A DNA stretch of 36,110 nt from the IMG/VR virus record IMGVR_UViG_2681812966_000001, positions 1 through 36,110 of that record. One strand, written 5' to 3'. Positions 4,412 through 36,046 of the stretch are shown here, in pieces (within the stretch, counting starts at the first letter, position 1; each line of letters starts with the position of its first letter). Origin of the DNA: a virus. The notes under the pieces were generated by a model. That model had not been told where the DNA came from. It saw only the letters and a program-made list of their open reading frames with translations, and made no database searches. Made by a program: the position numbers and the translations under genes.

Positions 4412-5539
4412 TCATTTAACCTTCTCAACACTCTTCCAATCAGGAGTCTTACTAGTAGCAGAAGAACAATCATAATACTTACTACCCTTATAATTCCACA
4501 TATGACCAGTAGTTGAACCATCAGTTTTAGTATAAGTACCACGCTTAATACCCATCTTTTTACCCGCTCCTTCGCATAGTTTTGCAAATAACCATGCAAA
4601 ATCAACACAATTAGCACGCTTACTATCCCAGCACTTCTTAGCAGACTTAGCACCAAACTTCATCTTATCTTCAGACTTAACAATATGGTTAGCATATTTC
4701 TTATATTTCCAACCACCAGTACCTCCACCAGTGCCAACACGCAACCATTTGTAGATTTTATCAATAGTACCAAGTTTCTGTCCTTTCAGTTTAATTTTCT
4801 TACCAATCGCAGAATTATCTTTCAAACCAATATTAACGTTCACAATTTCACATTTAGCATTCAAAGGATTATCACTACTAGTTGCTATGATTTGACCTTT
4901 TTTATTCTTGAATAAATAAGAACCTTCATATTTATTGTCTAAGTGGTTTTTGCCTTCTACAAGTTCAATAGTATAAGTCTGATTATCAATATCCTCCTTA
5001 ATACCTTCAATATACAAGTCCTTCTTACTTGTTTCCTTAAAACCTTTAAGATTAACATTAACCAAATCACCAACATTAACATCCTTAATGATAGGTATTT
5101 TCAAAGTGCCTTTATAAACAGATTTAGTATTCAAACCTTTCTTAGCCTTTGTTAGTGCTTCAGCTTTACTAAGACTACAATACTGACTTTTGGTTTGACT
5201 ATCAGCAACCTTAGTAGCACCATTAGCCTTAACAGTAGCAGGTGTCAACTTCTTACGAACCTTCTTAGCCTTATCTTGCCCAGAAACTCCGCAAAAATCT
5301 GCTCCGCATTTCTCACAAGTAATTTCTCCTTCTTTAACTTTTTTGGGATTAAATTTAAATTTCCCTTTACAAAAAGGACAAGAATTCTTCCAAGATTTCT
5401 TTGTTAGCTTGTAATCATAACCCTTTTTAGAAGGATAACACCATACAGTAATAGTTTTTTTATCATCACCAAAAACAGCTCTTACACCTTTCAAAACCAA
5501 AATAAACCACTCCTTTTTTTTAGAATGGTAGAGTTTCAT
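4412..5539 (-). CDS. Basic tail/baseplate protein: Zn-finger + hub-like barrel + C-terminal transglutaminase-fold Cys peptidase (pseudomurein endoisopeptidase-like)
   Basis: CPFC..CEKC..C Zn motif; RANCVDFA / GHMWNY / YYDCS Cys-His-Asp triad. Start at 5539 (MKLYH) preferred over 5617 to reduce overlap with upstream gene. Confidence 0.7.
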   Translation of the reverse strand: MKLYHSKKKEWFILVLKGVRAVFGDDKKTITVWCYPSKKGYDYKLTKKSWKNSCPFCKGKFKFNPKKVKEGEITCEKCGADFCGVSGQDKAKKVRKKLTPATVKANGATKVADSQTKSQYCSLSKAEALTKAKKGLNTKSVYKGTLKIPIIKDVNVGDLVNVNLKGFKETSKKDLYIEGIKEDIDNQTYTIELVEGKNHLDNKYEGSYLFKNKKGQIIATSSDNPLNAKCEIVNVNIGLKDNSAIGKKIKLKGQKLGTIDKIYKWLRVGTGGGTGGWKYKKYANHIVKSEDKMKFGAKSAKKCWDSKRANCVDFAWLFAKLCEGAGKKMGIKRGTYTKTDGSTTGHMWNYKGSKYYDCSSATSKTPDWKSVEKVK

Positions 5540-6686
5540 AACGTTTCTTAGTTCCACCAAAACCATTCCAATGCCCATTCCAATATTTACTGCTTGATTT
5601 AGTACCGGTGTCAACAACTATCCATTTATTCTTGACATAATACTCTCCATAAATATGCCCACCTTTTCCATTCTTAGCATGACAATATCTAGCCTTAATT
5701 CCTATAGAACGAGCCATTGCGATGAGCAAATGAGCATTATCACAACAATTACCTTTACGTTTACTAAGAGTACCTTCAGCCTTATATTTAGTATTAGCAT
5801 AACTAGAATAACCAATATTCTTATTACACCACTCATATAATAATTTCAAATTCTGATACTGACTATTACCTTTCTTAGCAATACTCAACGCCTGATTAAC
5901 AACCTTACTATTGATATTGTATTTTTGTATCATGGCATCATTCTTCAAACTAACATCTAATTTACTAGATGAGTTTGAACCAGTATCACTAGTACTTTCA
6001 CATTCTTCACTATCCGAAACATAACCCCACTTAGCAATCAAATCCTTACTACTACTTGCACTAGCTACAACTTTACCATCAAAAGTTATATGAAATTTTG
6101 TAATAATGTCACTACTATCATAGGATTCTTCATAGTCAAGTACATTAGTGAAACTATAACCAACTTGCTGCTTAGGAATGTAATTAAATAGTAGTGTTCC
6201 GTTAGCATCAACTTTTGCCCTTACTTCATAACCAGCTTGATGTTCCAACCAACACAATTGTTGGGCAATATCCCAGATACTAGTATTCTCCCATTTAACA
6301 TTACTATGAATAACACTAGTCTTTTTAATTCCACTTGTACTGAAATTGTTCCTACTAAGTTTCAGTACTTTTTTAAGTATTTGACTGCTTGTAAGGTTTT
6401 TGAAACTGCAAGTTACTTTATCATGATACAAACGCAGATAACTGATTACTTCATAAGTGTAATCATCACCAACGCTCTTTTTAATATTATAAATCTGACC
6501 TCCAAAATCCAGAGTGTTTGATTTATACCTTATACGGTCAGCCTCTGCTAGTTTAACAGGACTTCTGAAACTCATTGTAGAAGCTTCAGTTCTTTTCCAA
6601 TCAATACTTGCATCATGAAAAGGTAGCTCGGTGAATGTTGCTGAACCTCGATTGGTACTATGACTATAATACAATTTACCAATCAT
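5520..6686 (-). CDS. Baseplate hub-like protein with C-terminal transglutaminase-like Cys peptidase domain
   Basis: N-terminal gpD/XkdQ-like pattern (FGGQIYNI, YEVISYLRLY, SIWDIAQQL); KRKGNCCDNAHLLIAMARSIGIKARY / GHIYGEY / WIVVDTG is a classic transglutaminase-like triad. Confidence 0.82.
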   Translation of the reverse strand: MIGKLYYSHSTNRGSATFTELPFHDASIDWKRTEASTMSFRSPVKLAEADRIRYKSNTLDFGGQIYNIKKSVGDDYTYEVISYLRLYHDKVTCSFKNLTSSQILKKVLKLSRNNFSTSGIKKTSVIHSNVKWENTSIWDIAQQLCWLEHQAGYEVRAKVDANGTLLFNYIPKQQVGYSFTNVLDYEESYDSSDIITKFHITFDGKVVASASSSKDLIAKWGYVSDSEECESTSDTGSNSSSKLDVSLKNDAMIQKYNINSKVVNQALSIAKKGNSQYQNLKLLYEWCNKNIGYSSYANTKYKAEGTLSKRKGNCCDNAHLLIAMARSIGIKARYCHAKNGKGGHIYGEYYVKNKWIVVDTGTKSSSKYWNGHWNGFGGTKKRYETLPF

Positions 6687-6692
6687 AGTTTA

Positions 6693-7502
6693 TCACCTTA
6701 TTAAAGAACCAGTCACGCCTGTTGCAGGAGTTTTTAATCTACCTCCAACTCCAGAAACCTTTTGACTAAGGGTAGGGTACTTATATTTTTTTTGGAAATA
6801 GGTACGAGTAGCCTTATCCCACTTACCAGTAACCTTTAACTTAAACTTTTTCTGCAAACTTTTAACAGCTTGTGCAGTGTAAATCTGATATAAACCATCA
6901 ACCTTGTAATTTTTATAGTAGCCTTTACTTTGCAAGAACTTTTGCAAACTTTTAACACATTTCTTACCTTTATGTCCTTTACTCATCGTTGGGCAAGTTT
7001 TAAGTAAGTATTTAACATTGCTATTCAAATTATAAGCTCCACTTTGCTTAGTAGTTGTTTTCTTACTCTTCTTACTACTAGACACAGCCTTACCCCAAAC
7101 TCTGAAAGTTTTCCTGGTAACATTAAACTTGATCACTTCGGTAAACTCCCAATCGATAATATAATTATGTTGAGTATCTTCGGTGTAATCAAAACCTGTA
7201 CAGATATAATTACCATTTATCTTTGATTTACTTGGACTTGTTAAAACTTTAGATTTTTTGTTAAAAGTTTCAGCTAAATATTTGTAATCATTTATCCTGT
7301 GTCCTCGGCAATGTGGAGATTGTTCATCGTGTTTTACAATATTTTTAAAACTAATAACTCTTCCATTACTACTAATATGATTAGTTGTTGAACCATTAGC
7401 ACCCACATAAGGACTAGTATTAAATTCTTGAGTTTTTTTAACACTTATATCATCAATAATATTATTAATATTGATTCCAGCAAAAACAATATGCCCAGCC
7501 AT
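6693..7502 (-). CDS. Tail tube initiator (gpU-like) with C-terminal peptidoglycan-binding-like domain
   Basis: Directly after TMP; MSKGHKGKKCVKSLQKFL..VDGLY..YTAQAVKSLQKKFKLKVTGKWD matches the PG_binding_1 consensus (L..G..G..V..LQ..L..DG.FG..T..AV..FQ....L..TG..D). Confidence 0.72.
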   Translation of the reverse strand: MAGHIVFAGININNIIDDISVKKTQEFNTSPYVGANGSTTNHISSNGRVISFKNIVKHDEQSPHCRGHRINDYKYLAETFNKKSKVLTSPSKSKINGNYICTGFDYTEDTQHNYIIDWEFTEVIKFNVTRKTFRVWGKAVSSSKKSKKTTTKQSGAYNLNSNVKYLLKTCPTMSKGHKGKKCVKSLQKFLQSKGYYKNYKVDGLYQIYTAQAVKSLQKKFKLKVTGKWDKATRTYFQKKYKYPTLSQKVSGVGGRLKTPATGVTGSLIR

Positions 7503-20802: not shown

Positions 20803-21942
20803 TTATAGTTTGACTGCTTTTTCCCCAGTAAAACTTTCCCATCGGTTAATGATAACTTGGCAATAATAATGGTCTAGTTCCATCATGTAACAGTTACGGT
20901 TAGTTTGTTCACAAGCTATTAATGTACTTCCACTACCACCAAATAAATCAAGTATATTTTCTTTTTCATTTGAGAAATGTTTTATAAACTCTAATGGGAG
21001 TGTTATGTTTTTGCAATGTTTATGATTGAAATTATGTTCTTGAGTTTTAGATGTTTTTGGTGATTCAATTAGTGTTGTGAAGTGGTCGTTTAAGTTATTA
21101 AATGTTGTTGGTGGTTCTTTTCTGAAATGTCCTATAAAATCTACTTGTGTCATTGGAGCATTTGAATTGATTAAACGAGCTACTTTGAAGTCTACTGCGA
21201 ATAATCTTCTGAAATATTTATCATATTTTACTATGATGTGTGCTAATTTTCTTTCATTTGTCATTATAAAAATTTCTGCATTTGCTTTTGCATTTTTAAA
21301 AATGAGGGTAGAATAATTATCTTCTAAATCATATGGAGGGTCTGTGAATACGAGGTCTGCTTTAGTATTATTCATTAGTTTTTGTACATCTTCTTCTATT
21401 GTACTATCTCCACACATTAACCTGTGATTTCCAAGTGAGTATATTTCTCCATGTTTTACATTTACTTCTATTTCTTCCTTGTCTGGTATTTCGTAATCCT
21501 CTTCAACAATAATATCATCTGTTGTTTCTTCTTCGGTGTTTAGGTTTAGGTTTAGGTTTAGTTCGTTAAGTTCTAGGGTATCAAAACCTGTGAGTGTTAG
21601 GTCTAATCCTTTTAGTTTGAGCTCTTGGAAAACTTTTTCAAGTTTAGGTAAGTCAAAATCTCCACTTATTTTGTTAAGTGCAACATTCAATGCTTTTTCA
21701 CGCTCTAAACTTGGTTCATTGATGAATATAACATCAACTTCATTATAACCCATGTTTTTTAATGCATTGTATCTTTGGTTTCCTCCAACTATATGATTAT
21801 TATGTTTGTTTACTATGAGTGGGTCTACATAACCAAACTCTTTTAAACTGTTTTCTAGTTTCTCCATATCCTCAGGTGTGATATAACGAGGATTATAGTC
21901 GGGGCTTATTAGTTCAGTTATTTTAACAGTTTCAATCTTCAT
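20803..21942 (-). CDS. ParB-like domain fused to N6/N4 DNA methyltransferase
   Basis: N-terminal YNPR..SLKEFGYVDPLIVN..VGGNQR (ParB/Srx); DPPY catalytic motif; LDLFGGSGSTLIACEQ..MELD SAM-binding motif. Confidence 0.92.
   Translation of the reverse strand: MKIETVKITELISPDYNPRYITPEDMEKLENSLKEFGYVDPLIVNKHNNHIVGGNQRYNALKNMGYNEVDVIFINEPSLEREKALNVALNKISGDFDLPKLEKVFQELKLKGLDLTLTGFDTLELNELNLNLNLNTEEETTDDIIVEEDYEIPDKEEIEVNVKHGEIYSLGNHRLMCGDSTIEEDVQKLMNNTKADLVFTDPPYDLEDNYSTLIFKNAKANAEIFIMTNERKLAHIIVKYDKYFRRLFAVDFKVARLINSNAPMTQVDFIGHFRKEPPTTFNNLNDHFTTLIESPKTSKTQEHNFNHKHCKNITLPLEFIKHFSNEKENILDLFGGSGSTLIACEQTNRNCYMMELDHYYCQVIINRWESFTGEKAVKL
21538..21561. repeat. Microsatellite (GTTTAG)x4 encoding LNLNLNLN in MTase linker
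   Basis: Direct reading of sequence. Confidence 0.9.
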
Positions 21943-33683: not shown

Positions 33684-34214
33684 TTATTTATTTATTCTCT
33701 CCCTATATGCTTTCATAACCTCTCTAAATTTCTCTGACTTGTTTTCTCCAGGAACATTTTCTAAATGCTCCATCATAGATAATGAAGTCTTAATATTCAA
33801 TTTCTCGGTTTTGAATGTATAATCCTCTATCTTATCATGATATAGAATGAAAATATAATCAAATAATTCCTTCATAACCTCCTTCTCAGAAAGCCCTGAA
33901 TGATTCAATTCTGACAATGCATCCATGCATTTATCAAATATTTCCTCCTCCTTATAGTAAACTTCAGTACTACAAGAATAACCCATTCCTCCGAATATAC
34001 TACTACACATATAACCAAAACTTAATTGTTCGGAATGGGTTAAACCATGTTCATACCCATATTTCTGAGCATAAACATTCCACAAACTAGAAACATCCTC
34101 ATTATAATAAGGTATTCCTCTTTCTTTTGCATATTCTTCTAATTCTTCATAATTTATTGAAGAATCAATATTTTCTAATTCCTTGTTTTTAAAAAACATA
34201 ATATTAACCACCAA
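33684..34214 (-). CDS. Acidic hypothetical protein with possible C-terminal RHH DNA-binding motif
   Basis: KLNIKTSLSMMEHLENVPGENKSEKFREVMKAY resembles RHH. Confidence 0.7.
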   Translation of the reverse strand: MVVNIMFFKNKELENIDSSINYEELEEYAKERGIPYYNEDVSSLWNVYAQKYGYEHGLTHSEQLSFGYMCSSIFGGMGYSCSTEVYYKEEEIFDKCMDALSELNHSGLSEKEVMKELFDYIFILYHDKIEDYTFKTEKLNIKTSLSMMEHLENVPGENKSEKFREVMKAYRERINK

Positions 34215-34218
34215 AAAA

Positions 34219-34252
34219 AATAAGAAAGGATCTAATTAGATCCTTTCTTATT
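34219..34252. terminator. Perfect 34-bp palindrome (terminator hairpin or operator)
   Basis: AATAAGAAAGGATCTAA/TTAGATCCTTTCTTATT, followed on the minus strand by a T run. Confidence 0.6.
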
Positions 34253-34264
34253 AAAATTTTAAAA

Positions 34265-35056
34265 TCATCTCCTTTTTATATCCTCAATAATCATTTCATT
34301 TAGCTCTTTTTCACAAATATTGTTTATCTCTTCAAGAGAGTAACATTCAAGAATTTGCTCATAATTATTTGCAGCATCCCTGATGTATGATTCATCACAG
34401 TTTTTCATAAGCTCCTGTTTTATGAGGTCCTGATAATTAGTGTAAACCTCTTTGTCTATTATCTTTTGTCTTACAAATATTTTCTCTGCATCTTCAAGCA
34501 TTTCTTTTATAACTGGTTCTTTCTGTTCAAAGTCATAGTTTTCATCAAACCAATCATAATCAACTTCTCGGATAATAACGTTTTCACCATATTTGCAAAT
34601 ATAATTTCCTTCCCCACTCCAGGTTGCATCAATATCTTCTGCTAGTTCATCTAGCAAATCATTATCAAGGACAGTATCTGCAAACTTGAATGTGAGTTTT
34701 GCATTAAGCAATACATTATCTTCTGAATATTTTTTGACTTCATCAATGTTCATTTCTAATTGTGTTCCTCCATTGATAAGGAGAGTATAACTCTCCCTAT
34801 CAATAGTAATGGATTCTTCTGCAAAATTTGTTAAAAATTTAACAAATTCGTAATCTTCCATAAAAGCTATTTCCAATTTCTCAATATCTTCTTCCTGCCC
34901 CTCAAAGTAAGCACTATCTAAATGGCTTTGAGGTTGATTCATATCATCATAGAATTTTATACCATTATCATCATCATATAATTCATCCACGTAAGCATAG
35001 CCAGCAAAACTAGCTGTACCATACATACATTCAAATTCAATGATATCAGGACTCAT
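34265..35056 (-). CDS. Highly acidic hypothetical protein; candidate anti-defence factor
   Basis: 263 aa D/E-rich; ATGA-coupled to the AcrIII-1 fusion gene. Confidence 0.8.
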   Translation of the reverse strand: MSPDIIEFECMYGTASFAGYAYVDELYDDDNGIKFYDDMNQPQSHLDSAYFEGQEEDIEKLEIAFMEDYEFVKFLTNFAEESITIDRESYTLLINGGTQLEMNIDEVKKYSEDNVLLNAKLTFKFADTVLDNDLLDELAEDIDATWSGEGNYICKYGENVIIREVDYDWFDENYDFEQKEPVIKEMLEDAEKIFVRQKIIDKEVYTNYQDLIKQELMKNCDESYIRDAANNYEQILECYSLEEINNICEKELNEMIIEDIKRR

Positions 35057-35976
35057 AAAGAAGCCCCCTTTCCTTCCTTAACCTCCACTTTTAATGGAAC
35101 TAAAGTAGCTCCATCTGGGAGTACAGTAGCTCCCTCTTCAAGTCTAGGCCCAGTGTACTGTGCGATATACACAGTATCACCTGGTTTGACATGAATAGTA
35201 ATCCTATTCATGTCTAATCCTACCATATGAGCCACGTCAGCGTGGCCCATAAAATTAACGAAGTCCTTATTTTCAAGGACTTCGTCAAACTCTTCCCAAG
35301 AAATTTGCTGAGAAGAGATGTCCACATTCGGGTTATCTAAGAACCCGAATGTGAATACATTGCCTACATAAACTGTAGGCTCTGTTGATGATGAGTCATC
35401 GTCTGACTCATCAACTTCTAAAGAGAGTTTTTCCTCTCTCACGATAAAATCAGTGAGAGAGATTAACTCTCTTTCCCTGTTGAGATGTATATCATACATC
35501 TCAGCGAGTTTAAAAAACTCGCTTCCAACAGCTTCCTTAACTCTTAAGACCTTAAGGAAACAGTTTAAAATATTTTCTTCTGTTACTCTATCCTTCAAAA
35601 AGGAATAGTAACAGAAGAAAATATCACTATTATAGCACATTTCTGTACTATAATAGCAAATTTCTTTTCTGATATCCGGCTTCACCCCTTCGATGAAGTC
35701 GTCTTCACAGAGTTCTGTAAAGAACTCTGATTCGTCTTCAACTTTTGCAAGTTGAAGAAGATCATAGTGTTCACAATGGTGAACACATTCCTCAAGTGCA
35801 TAGTTAATAAACCATGCACGAGGATTTTTGATTTCTCCTCCTTTATCGAAAGAGAAATCAAATCCCTCAAATTCAACGTCAAATACGGTGTGGACGTAAC
35901 CGTCCACATCGTCTTCTTTACCGAAGAAGCTGTCTCCAGCTTCTTCAATAATTTTATGATTTTTGATATTTAACAT
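35053..35976 (-). CDS. acrIII-1: Fusion protein: unknown acidic N-terminal domain + AcrIII-1 (DUF1874/STIV B116) cA4 ring nuclease
   Basis: aa 201-300: VYVGNVF..F, ISWEEF, NFMGH, NRITI, GDTVYIAQ, RLEEG occur in the same order as the SIRV1 gp29 motifs (VYLANAFS, SIGH, NRVEI, RLEEG); His245 codon at 35242-35244. Confidence 0.85.
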   Translation of the reverse strand: MLNIKNHKIIEEAGDSFFGKEDDVDGYVHTVFDVEFEGFDFSFDKGGEIKNPRAWFINYALEECVHHCEHYDLLQLAKVEDESEFFTELCEDDFIEGVKPDIRKEICYYSTEMCYNSDIFFCYYSFLKDRVTEENILNCFLKVLRVKEAVGSEFFKLAEMYDIHLNRERELISLTDFIVREEKLSLEVDESDDDSSSTEPTVYVGNVFTFGFLDNPNVDISSQQISWEEFDEVLENKDFVNFMGHADVAHMVGLDMNRITIHVKPGDTVYIAQYTGPRLEEGATVLPDGATLVPLKVEVKEGKGASL

Positions 35977-36046
35977 CCTTTATCACCTTTATCAGATTTT
36001 AAAAAAACTATTTTTTTATCTTTTTGTAATACTATATTTAGTGTTA

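What the first reader, a model, noticed from the sequence alone, without database searches (positions are those of the whole stretch)
35053..35976. AcrIII-1 ring nuclease fused to an unknown 200-aa domain in a methanogen virus
Seen: residues ~201-300 carry the DUF1874 motif series (VYVGNVF, MGH, NR, GDTVY, RLEEG) behind an acidic linker (DESDDDSSS). Residues 1-190 form an unrelated acidic, Cys/His-rich domain (EECVHHCEH). Established: AcrIII-1 proteins such as SIRV1 gp29 are ~110-aa standalone dimers that degrade cA4 via the GH histidine and so disable type III CRISPR signalling. Inference: this is a two-domain anti-defence protein whose N-domain may inhibit a second immune component or localise the nuclease. 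The gene looks more GC-rich than its neighbours by eye, suggesting recent acquisition.
Basis: partly seen in the sequence, partly recalled or inferred. Interest (0 to 1): 0.92.

Follow-up and report, generated by a model that had tools for sequence, protein, structure and literature searches.

The report
Ring-nuclease anti-CRISPR fused to orphan domain
A provirus in the rumen methanogen Methanobrevibacter olleyae encodes an enzyme of the family that destroys the type III CRISPR alarm molecule cA4, fused to a very rare domain of unknown fold that elsewhere is a separate viral gene, once right beside such an enzyme, so the domain is a candidate new partner in viral counter-defence.

Summary

C-terminal domain (aa ~202-300):
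- It passes Pfam's cut-off for PF08960 (DUF1874/STIV B116).
- It folds at pLDDT 88-97 and matches SIRV1 gp29 bound to cA4 (6scf, TM 0.75-0.78).
- It keeps the His, Arg, Gln and Asn residues that bind and cut cA4.

Host: M. olleyae YLM1 (CP014265). The gene is the first one after the provirus integrase.

N-terminal domain (aa 1-187):
- I found no family, profile or fold match for it in any library searched.
- It is a real mobile module, with six other protein clusters among billions of proteins, all standalone and on virus-like contigs.
- On one contig it lies 30 bp from a standalone DUF1874 gene 55% identical to the window's C-domain.
- That copy and the fused copy are the two earliest branches of one well-supported DUF1874 clade.

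Not tested: cA4 cleavage, what the N-domain does, and whether YLM1 has a type III system. The "recent acquisition" inference is only partly supported.

Verdict: a new architectural variant of AcrIII-1. The earlier scan holds a parallel note on a phage Csx3 fusion in other DNA.

The parts
35053..35976 (-). Whole gene, 307 codons plus TGA stop: N-domain, linker, DUF1874 domain
   Evidence: exact protein on CP014265.1
35416..35976 (-). N-terminal orphan domain, aa 1-187. Predicted as a three-stranded beta-meander (aa 2-46) followed by helices. Invariant residues in the family include H66-x-C68-x-H70, C90-E-D-D, D101, R103 and Y115-N-S-D118.
   Evidence: Family alignment A3; AF2 model pLDDT 76, pTM 0.74; no family or fold match
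35767..35781 (-). H66-H67-C68-E69-H70. The HxCxH motif is invariant in all six full-length family members. Together with C90 it is a candidate His2Cys2 metal site (inference only).
   Evidence: the truncated member P0012 lacks HxCxH and also has Y in place of C90
35374..35415 (-). Acidic Ser/Asp-rich linker, aa 188-201 (VDESDDDSSSTEP), predicted disordered
   Evidence: pLDDT below 50 across aa 154-196
35056..35373 (-). DUF1874 / AcrIII-1-type ring-nuclease domain, aa 202-307
   Evidence: PF08960 above gathering score; 2x4i and 6scf sequence hits; Foldseek 6scf E 1.6e-7, TM 0.75-0.78, rmsd 2.1-2.6
35242..35244 (-). Codon of His245, which aligns with SIRV1 gp29 His47, the general acid of cA4 cleavage
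   Evidence: alignment; invariant in A1 and A5; role of H47 from 10.1101/778746
35982..35987 (-). GGTGAT Shine-Dalgarno, with 5 nt between it and the ATG
   Evidence: the same motif precedes both split genes in L007
36051..36058 (-). TTTATATA, a candidate archaeal TATA box about 75 nt upstream of the ATG, in the 300-bp AT-rich gap after the integrase gene (inference)
34265..35056 (-). Next gene, 263 aa, pI 4.05, no known family. Its ATG overlaps the fusion gene's TGA (ATGA), so the two are probably translationally coupled.
33684..34214 (-). Third gene of the same-strand run, 176 aa, acidic, no known family

Best explanation
This is a genuine single gene of a Methanobrevibacter olleyae provirus that joins two mobile viral modules. 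The C-terminal module is an AcrIII-1-type ring nuclease. By homology it should dimerise, bind cyclic tetra-adenylate (cA4) at the dimer interface and cut it using His245 as general acid. That would switch off the cA4-activated effectors of type III CRISPR immunity. The N-terminal module is an acidic domain of about 187 aa from a very rare orphan family, possibly stabilised by a His2Cys2 metal site. It normally exists as a separate small viral gene. Because it is fused to the ring nuclease here and lies next to one on another contig, it most likely works in the same counter-defence pathway. My best guess is that it binds or blocks a host component the nuclease cannot deal with, or brings the nuclease to the signalling complex. 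The gene is the first one after the integrase and heads the unidirectional gene run, which fits expression at the very start of infection or induction. Shown here: gene integrity, family and fold membership of the C-domain, conservation of catalytic and contact residues, modularity of the N-domain, and the fused-versus-adjacent relationship. Inferred: enzymatic activity, anti-CRISPR role in this host, timing of expression, metal binding, and any function of the N-domain.
For: C-domain: PF08960 at 29.9 and 32.3 bits against a cut-off of 26. PDB 2x4i and 6scf sequence hits have GH and RLEEG aligned. The AF2 model has pLDDT 88-97 over aa 200-300. Foldseek matches 6scf (E 1.6e-7, TM 0.75-0.78), 2x4i, STIV B116 (2j85), AFV3-109 (2j6b) and Csx1-Crn2 (8y7g). 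N206, H245, R258, Q273 and R278 align with gp29 N8, H47, R66, Q81 and R85 and are invariant in 13 relatives. Viral context: provirus record, integrase immediately upstream, tailed-virus genes. N-domain as a module: an exhaustive HMMER search of 1.84 billion representatives found only P0009, P0010 and P0012. A profile search added P0013-P0015. All are standalone proteins of 130-212 aa lying in arrays of small same-strand genes, one on a contig with a phage portal. Link between the modules: on L007 a 99-aa DUF1874 gene, 55% identical to the window's C-domain (E 5e-41), ends 30 bp before the N-domain homolog P0010, and each has its own GGTGAT ribosome-binding site. In the DUF1874 tree, L007 and the window are the two earliest branches of a 13-row clade with 100/99 support. 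No other window gene is shared with those contigs. An N-terminal fusion to this fold is compatible with activity in Csx1-Crn2. Type III-A systems occur in the genus (PMC13078230).
Against: No biochemical test exists. Three of the nine gp29 cA4-contact side chains are not conserved: S49 is Asp, T50 is Val and N13 is Gly, although D-V or D-T at these positions is common in phage homologs. The helix after GH is 6 residues shorter than in most relatives. YLM1's CRISPR type and cA4 effectors could not be examined; the genome paper reports only 'two CRISPR regions'. The module link rests on one adjacency (two near-identical contigs) plus one fusion. Five other N-domain loci show no DUF1874 within the DNA held, but most of those contigs are 1-10 kb. 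The fused form is known from a single genome.
Confidence: 0.62

Rival explanations
1. Lysogeny-phase regulator rather than an infection-phase anti-CRISPR. On this reading the integrase-proximal gene is expressed from the resident provirus and acts like a cellular Crn2. It would mop up cA4 made when host type III complexes sense provirus transcripts, protecting the lysogen from self-inflicted dormancy. The N-domain would tune or restrain that activity.
For: The gene lies directly beside the integrase at the provirus edge, behind its own 300-bp AT-rich intergenic region, a typical place for lysogeny-expressed accessory genes. DUF1874 enzymes are used by cells as Crn2 regulators, and in Csx1-Crn2 the fused partner sets the activation threshold.
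Against: The gene has the same orientation as all other provirus genes and heads the early run, which fits lytic early expression equally well. It is not known whether host spacers match the provirus.
Confidence: 0.15
2. The two halves are functionally independent anti-defence modules that happen to be joined. The N-domain would be, for example, an acidic DNA-mimic or inhibitor of a non-CRISPR system such as restriction-modification. The fusion and the adjacency would then only reflect clustering of counter-defence genes in anti-defence islands.
For: The N-domain is strongly acidic (pI 4.46, 45 Asp+Glu in 190 aa). It is standalone in six clusters, five of them with no DUF1874 in the DNA held. 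The neighbouring genes are also acidic orphans. The interdomain arrangement in the full-length model is undefined (pTM 0.44) and the linker is disordered.
Against: The only two DUF1874 copies linked to this very rare family are the two earliest branches of one well-supported clade, which is more than random clustering would predict. No match to any known DNA-mimic or Acr fold rises above noise.
Confidence: 0.15
3. The DUF1874 domain here does not act on CRISPR signalling at all, either because it has another substrate or because the host has no cA4 pathway. The protein would then have some other role in nucleotide or RNA metabolism of the virus.
For: The host's type III status is unverified. 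Three cA4-contact positions differ from gp29 and one helix is shortened.
Against: The catalytic His and four principal contact residues are invariant. The fold match is best to the cA4-bound structure. All characterised members of the family cleave cA4.
Confidence: 0.05
4. The fusion is a sequencing or assembly artefact joining two adjacent genes.
For: It is seen in one genome only, which was assembled partly from 454 reads. The same two modules are separate genes on L007.
Against: There is no homopolymer run in the linker DNA. The module order is the reverse of L007, so a single lost stop codon cannot explain it. There is no stop, ribosome-binding site or ATG where a second gene would begin; the first Met in the C-part is M243. 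The genome was finished with Illumina and Sanger reads.
Confidence: 0.03

Closest known systems
AcrIII-1 (viral DUF1874 ring nuclease; SIRV1 gp29, PDB 2x4i/6scf; STIV B116 2j85; AFV3-109 2j6b; phage THSA-485A DUF1874; B. subtilis ICEBs1 YddF)
   Same: It has the same Pfam family, the same fold (TM 0.75-0.78 to 6scf), the same GH catalytic His and the Arg, Gln and Asn cA4 contacts, and it is encoded by a virus or mobile element.
   Different: Known members are standalone proteins of about 100-135 aa; 12 of the 16 related IMG/VR loci (L014-L029) encode such proteins. This one carries a 187-aa N-terminal domain and a linker. It has a 6-residue shorter helix after GH and Asp-Val in place of gp29 S49-T50. 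The host is a mesophilic methanogen, not a crenarchaeon or a bacterium.
Csx1-Crn2 fusion of Marinitoga (PDB 8y7f/8y7g; Samolygo et al. 2020; PMC11317161)
   Same: In both, a DUF1874 domain sits at the C-terminus of a larger protein, joined through its N-terminus, which shows such fusions can be active.
   Different: There the partner is a cellular CARF-HEPN effector inside a CRISPR locus, making a self-limiting defence enzyme. Here the partner has no CARF or HEPN signal and the gene is viral.
Split arrangement on metagenomic contig L007 (Logan SRR28623926): standalone DUF1874 (99 aa) followed by N-domain homolog P0010 (212 aa)
   Same: It has the same two modules, 55% and 38% identical to the window's halves, and the same GGTGAT ribosome-binding motif on low-GC DNA.
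   Different: There they are separate genes in the opposite order, DUF1874 first.
Crown group of the same DUF1874 clade (P0002-P0007, P0020-P0024; e.g. L009, on a 148-kb contig)
   Same: These are the closest C-domain relatives, 52-59% identical for most members (43-48% for P0006, P0023 and P0024), and they also carry extensions.
   Different: Their N-extension of 78-100 aa is unrelated (BLASTP E 0.38). P0002-P0005 and P0007 also carry a C-terminal Cys-rich tail; the tails of P0020-P0024 were not examined.

Membership tests
AcrIII-1 / Crn2 (Pfam PF08960, DUF1874, STIV_B116-like) | Sequence match to the family profile above the curated threshold | tested here: met
   29.9 bits (whole protein) and 32.3 bits (aa 201-307 alone) against a cut-off of 26; 31.2 bits in the six-frame search; phrog_5063 E 1e-12
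AcrIII-1 / Crn2 (Pfam PF08960, DUF1874, STIV_B116-like) | DUF1874 fold as in the solved structures | tested here: met
   AF2 pLDDT 88-97 over aa 200-300; Foldseek 6scf E 1.6e-7, prob 1.00, TM 0.75-0.78, rmsd 2.1-2.6; also 2x4i, 2j85, 2j6b, 8y7g
AcrIII-1 / Crn2 (Pfam PF08960, DUF1874, STIV_B116-like) | Absolutely conserved catalytic His (gp29 H47) in the GH motif | tested here: met
   H245 aligns with H47; invariant in A1 and A5; the role of H47 is taken from 10.1101/778746
AcrIII-1 / Crn2 (Pfam PF08960, DUF1874, STIV_B116-like) | cA4-contact side chains (gp29 N8, S11, N13, S49, T50, R66, Q81, R85) | tested here: inconclusive
   N8, R66, Q81 and R85 are identical and S11 is Thr. N13 is Gly, S49 is Asp and T50 is Val. 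D-V or D-T at positions 49-50 is common in phage relatives.
AcrIII-1 / Crn2 (Pfam PF08960, DUF1874, STIV_B116-like) | Homodimer that buries cA4 at the interface | not testable with these tools
AcrIII-1 / Crn2 (Pfam PF08960, DUF1874, STIV_B116-like) | Rapid metal-independent cleavage of cA4 to A2>P | not testable with these tools
   This needs a biochemical assay
AcrIII-1 (the anti-CRISPR sub-role, as opposed to cellular Crn2) | Encoded by a virus or mobile element, not inside a type III CRISPR locus | tested here: met
   Provirus record; integrase upstream and virus genes downstream, with no cas genes in the 21 kb of L002; structural module
AcrIII-1 (the anti-CRISPR sub-role, as opposed to cellular Crn2) | Host has a type III system with a Cas10 cyclase and cA4-activated effectors | not tested
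The genome paper says only 'two CRISPR regions'. M. intestini has III-A plus I-B.
Csx1-Crn2 self-limiting effector | CARF and HEPN domains N-terminal to the DUF1874 domain | tested here: not met
   No CARF, HEPN or Csx1 profile hit at E up to 1 for aa 1-200 or for any family member. No PDB sequence-profile hit. The model is a three-stranded beta-meander plus helices of about 190 aa. The fold searches listed no CARF or HEPN match, which on its own would be inconclusive.

The most novel reading that the evidence does not exclude
The N-domain family (window aa 1-187, P0009, P0010, P0012-P0015) may be a previously unrecognised anti-defence protein family that cooperates with AcrIII-1. It could neutralise an arm of type III immunity that cA4 degradation leaves intact, such as Cas10 itself, a non-cA4 signal, or an effector, or it could dock the nuclease onto the signalling complex. 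The window's protein would then be a natural dual-action anti-CRISPR, and the first such lead from a methanogen virus.
Probability: 0.3. Interest if true: 0.8.

Novelty: new variant of a known kind. Interest (0 to 1): 0.55.

Why it matters
In the papers I read, AcrIII-1 is described as a small standalone enzyme, and the only fusion they describe is the cellular Csx1-Crn2. Here a viral copy is fused to an orphan module. The same module sits next to a ring-nuclease gene in another virus. That fused-versus-adjacent pattern is the kind of signal that has led to new anti-defence proteins before, and it gives a concrete, cheap experiment: test the N-domain alone, the C-domain alone and the full-length protein. 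It also gives a first handle on counter-defence in viruses of Methanobrevibacter, the dominant rumen and gut methanogens, whose virus-host biology is poorly known and which are targets for methane mitigation. The limit is rarity. The N-domain family has only seven clusters in 5.8 billion proteins, so its general importance may be small.

Tried and rejected
N-domain identity. Nothing was found with any of these:
- Pfam, PHROGs and PADLOC, and each family member against Pfam.
- The family profile against PDB sequences.
- Foldseek against PDB and BFVD.
- VIA-align wide: best Z 4.7, MntR, below the tool's noise level.
- ESM Atlas by structure and by features.
- GenBank phages and IMG/VR.

Other points:
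- P0011 (928 aa, 11 matched stretches) is a low-complexity repeat protein and was rejected as a spurious hit.
- MAFFT suggested that GFDFSFD/EECV in the window resembles GYPFSFDECV in P0002-P0007. BLASTP gives E 0.38, so I rejected it. The CYNSDIFFC versus CYYNGVFxC resemblance is equally insignificant.
- Reaching the host chromosome to look for cas10, csm6 or csx1 failed, and the genome-contig scan did not return it.
- No tRNA lies near the integrase in L002, so no attachment site was defined.
- The window's two downstream acidic genes have no relatives at any N-domain locus.
Full report
**1. The observation**

The minus-strand ORF 35053..35976 is real: 307 codons, an ATG start and a TGA stop. 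A GGTGAT Shine-Dalgarno lies upstream with 5 nt between it and the ATG, and a TTTATATA element lies about 75 nt upstream in an AT-rich gap. The stop codon overlaps the ATG of the next gene (ATGA).

**2. The C-terminal domain**

- Residues ~202-285 match Pfam PF08960 (STIV_B116-like, formerly DUF1874). The score is 29.9 bits in the whole protein and 32.3 bits for aa 201-307 alone, against a gathering score of 26. They also match phrog_5063 at E 1e-12.
- A phmmer search of PDB sequences finds SIRV1 gp29 (2x4i, E 1.8e-5), its H47A-cA4 complex (6scf) and AFV3-109 (2j6b). The window's MGH aligns with gp29 G46-H47 and PRLEEG with R85-E88.
- With a 27-sequence alignment, AlphaFold2 models aa 200-300 at pLDDT 88-97.
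- Foldseek places that model on 6scf (E 1.6e-7, prob 1.00, TM 0.75-0.78 by target, rmsd 2.1-2.6 Å). Next come 2x4i, STIV B116 (2j85), AFV3-109 and Marinitoga Csx1-Crn2 (8y7g).
- The AcrIII-1 paper names H47 as general acid, R85 as the loop 'lock', and N8, S11, N13, S49, T50, R66 and Q81 as cA4 contacts (10.1101/778746).
- By the alignment the window has N206, H245, R258, Q273 and R278 at N8, H47, R66, Q81 and R85, and Thr at S11. It differs at N13 (Gly), S49 (Asp) and T50 (Val).
- In an alignment of 13 relatives, N, GH, R, Q, Y-GPRL-EG and T-LP-G are invariant. Asp-Val or Asp-Thr after GHx is common. The window, L007 and their clade have a helix 6 residues shorter after GH.

I therefore file the domain as a member of the AcrIII-1/Crn2 family with an intact catalytic centre. 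Activity and dimerisation are inferred, not shown.

**3. Where it lives**

- The window is an IMG/VR provirus record, 82% complete by CheckV.
- The exact protein is encoded on NCBI CP014265.1, a 2,201,192-bp contig. [quoted passage not shown]
- Upstream host genes are archaeal in type, for example a Kae1-Bud32 fusion and ribosomal protein S15.
- A 447-aa integrase gene ends 300 bp before the fusion gene.
- All large genes in the window lie on the same strand. They include an HNH endonuclease, a ParB-methylase, small and large terminase, an XkdF-type protease, a virion protein, baseplate J and a tail fibre.

So 'methanogen virus' is correct, and the gene heads the unidirectional gene run.

**4. 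The N-terminal domain**

- Residues 1-200 hit nothing in Pfam, PHROGs or PADLOC.
- An exhaustive phmmer search of 1.84 billion representative proteins gave four hits. P0009 (177 aa, 50% identity, E 1.8e-34), P0010 (212 aa) and P0012 (130 aa, C-terminal half only) are real. P0011, a 928-aa low-complexity repeat, I reject.
- A profile search of 5.8 billion clusters added P0013, P0014 and P0015, of 189-198 aa.
- All six are standalone proteins. The window's protein is the only fused member.
- Their alignment shows an invariant H-x-C-x-H (H66, C68, H70), C90-E-D-D, D101, R103 and Y115-N-S-D118, among others. P0012 lacks the HxCxH half and also has Tyr in place of C90. This is weak support for those four residues forming one site, and a His2Cys2 metal site is my inference.
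- With only seven sequences, AF2 gave a usable model (pLDDT 76, pTM 0.74). It has three beta-strands (aa 2-46) followed by helices, with the conserved segment aa 90-115 at low confidence.
- No library recognises the fold: Foldseek PDB has no hit at E ≤ 0.001, VIA-align wide gives a best Z of 4.7, ESM Atlas gives TM ≤ 0.32, and BFVD has nothing.
- The sequence-feature atlas, per-member Pfam scans and a PDB profile search are also empty. GenBank phages and IMG/VR hold no relative.

**5. The link between the two modules**

- The standalone N-domain genes sit in arrays of small same-strand genes of unknown function. One is on a 26.8-kb contig with a phage portal gene.
- On L007, and on a near-identical second contig, a 99-aa gene ends 30 bp before P0010. 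That gene matches PF08960 and is 55% identical to the window's C-domain (E 5e-41). Each of the two genes has its own GGTGAT ribosome-binding site.
- So the two halves of the window's protein occur elsewhere as neighbouring genes, in the reverse order.
- tblastn finds no DUF1874 in the DNA held for the other N-domain loci, but most of those contigs are short.
- No other window protein has a relative on any of these contigs. The two modules therefore travel as accessory genes between otherwise unrelated viruses.
- In a maximum-likelihood tree of 33 DUF1874 domains, a 13-row clade has 100/99 support. L007 branches first and the window second. A crown group (P0002-P0007, P0020-P0024) follows, with 100/97 support (midpoint root, so the branching order is provisional).
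- The crown group carries a different, unrelated N-extension. P0002-P0005 and P0007 also have a Cys-rich C-terminal tail.
- The only two DUF1874 copies tied to this very rare family are thus each other's near relatives. I read this as an old functional association rather than chance clustering.

**6. How unusual the architecture is**

- Of the 16 related IMG/VR loci, 12 encode standalone proteins of 107-136 aa. L014, L025 and L029 have N-extensions of 49-80 aa, and L027 is a 40-aa fragment. The standalone DUF1874 proteins at L003-L005 and L007 are 99-127 aa.
- A search restricted to longer proteins found a handful of other fused forms: a 523-aa Csx1-like protein, forms with PF01469 or PF12482, and several of 229-332 aa. 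None contains the window's N-domain.
- The literature I could read describes only the cellular Csx1-Crn2 fusion. Full-text searches found no paper pairing AcrIII-1 or DUF1874 with Methanobrevibacter viruses.

**7. Is the fusion real?**

- The linker DNA has no homopolymer run that would invite a 454 error.
- The N-domain homologs end exactly where the linker begins, and standalone DUF1874 proteins begin exactly where it ends.
- No stop, ribosome-binding site or ATG marks a second gene.
- The reversed module order relative to L007 rules out a simple read-through of two neighbours.
- I could not obtain reads, so this rests on one finished genome.

**8. GC content**

- The gene is 38.2% GC against 30.8% for the window. 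Its GC3 of 0.355 is the highest of 37 ORFs (median 0.24, sd 0.048), and both halves are elevated (0.349 and 0.376).
- N-domain relatives lie on contigs of 38-41% GC, which fits import from a GC-richer virus.
- However, DUF1874 genes in three genomes of 29-30% GC are 44-49% GC. The family seems GC-rich wherever it sits, so the inference of recent acquisition is only partly supported.

**9. Mechanism and its limits**

The best-supported reading is an early-expressed anti-type III CRISPR factor. Its C-domain would degrade cA4 as AcrIII-1 does, and its N-domain would act in the same pathway in an unknown way. Type III-A systems exist in the genus (M. intestini, PMC13078230), but YLM1's own systems could not be examined. 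Rivals are a lysogeny-phase Crn2-like tolerance factor, two functionally independent anti-defence modules, a non-CRISPR substrate, and an assembly artefact.

**10. Verdict**

This is a new architectural variant of a known anti-CRISPR, with a credible but untested lead to a new partner family.

Noticed in passing
window 33684-35056 (-): Two further acidic orphan genes follow the fusion gene on the same strand: 263 aa with pI 4.05, and 176 aa. The first is translationally coupled to the fusion gene by an ATGA overlap. Neither hits Pfam, PHROGs or PADLOC, and neither has relatives at any of the fetched loci.
   Followed up: partly
L009:7881-8630 and proteins P0002-P0007, P0020-P0024: The crown group of the same DUF1874 clade carries an unrelated N-extension of 78-100 aa. 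P0002-P0005 and P0007 also have a C-terminal Cys-rich tail (CYYNGVFxCxxCGECND). One member lies on a 148-kb, 30% GC contig with terminase, radical SAM and PcfJ genes. This is a second uncharacterised AcrIII-1 architecture.
   Followed up: partly
L018:474-773 and L018:2912-3208: One IMG/VR contig carries two DUF1874 copies about 2 kb apart.
   Followed up: no
L003:9995-10348, L004:193-573, L005:10004-10315: DUF1874 genes in two Clostridia MAGs and a Nanoarchaeia MAG are 44-49% GC on contigs of 29-30% GC. GC-richness seems to be a family trait in low-GC genomes.
   Followed up: partly
window 6693-7502 (-) and 5520-6686 (-): A bacterial-type PG_binding_1 domain (E 2.6e-13) and a transglutaminase-core domain (E 8e-20) occur in tail or baseplate-region proteins of a virus whose host has pseudomurein rather than murein.
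   Followed up: no
window 20803-21942 (-): A ParB N-terminal domain is fused to an N6/N4 DNA methylase, just upstream of the small terminase gene.
   Followed up: no
L006:7647-7907: A small SWIM zinc-finger gene lies directly upstream of the standalone N-domain homolog P0009. tblastn also aligns N-domain aa 1-25 just before the called start of P0009, so that gene may begin earlier than annotated.
   Followed up: no
L002:3835-5250: A host DHH-DHHA1 protein of 471 aa lies about 5 kb upstream of the provirus. It is probably a RecJ/GAN-type housekeeping nuclease. I mention it only because DHH nucleases can degrade cOA.
   Followed up: no
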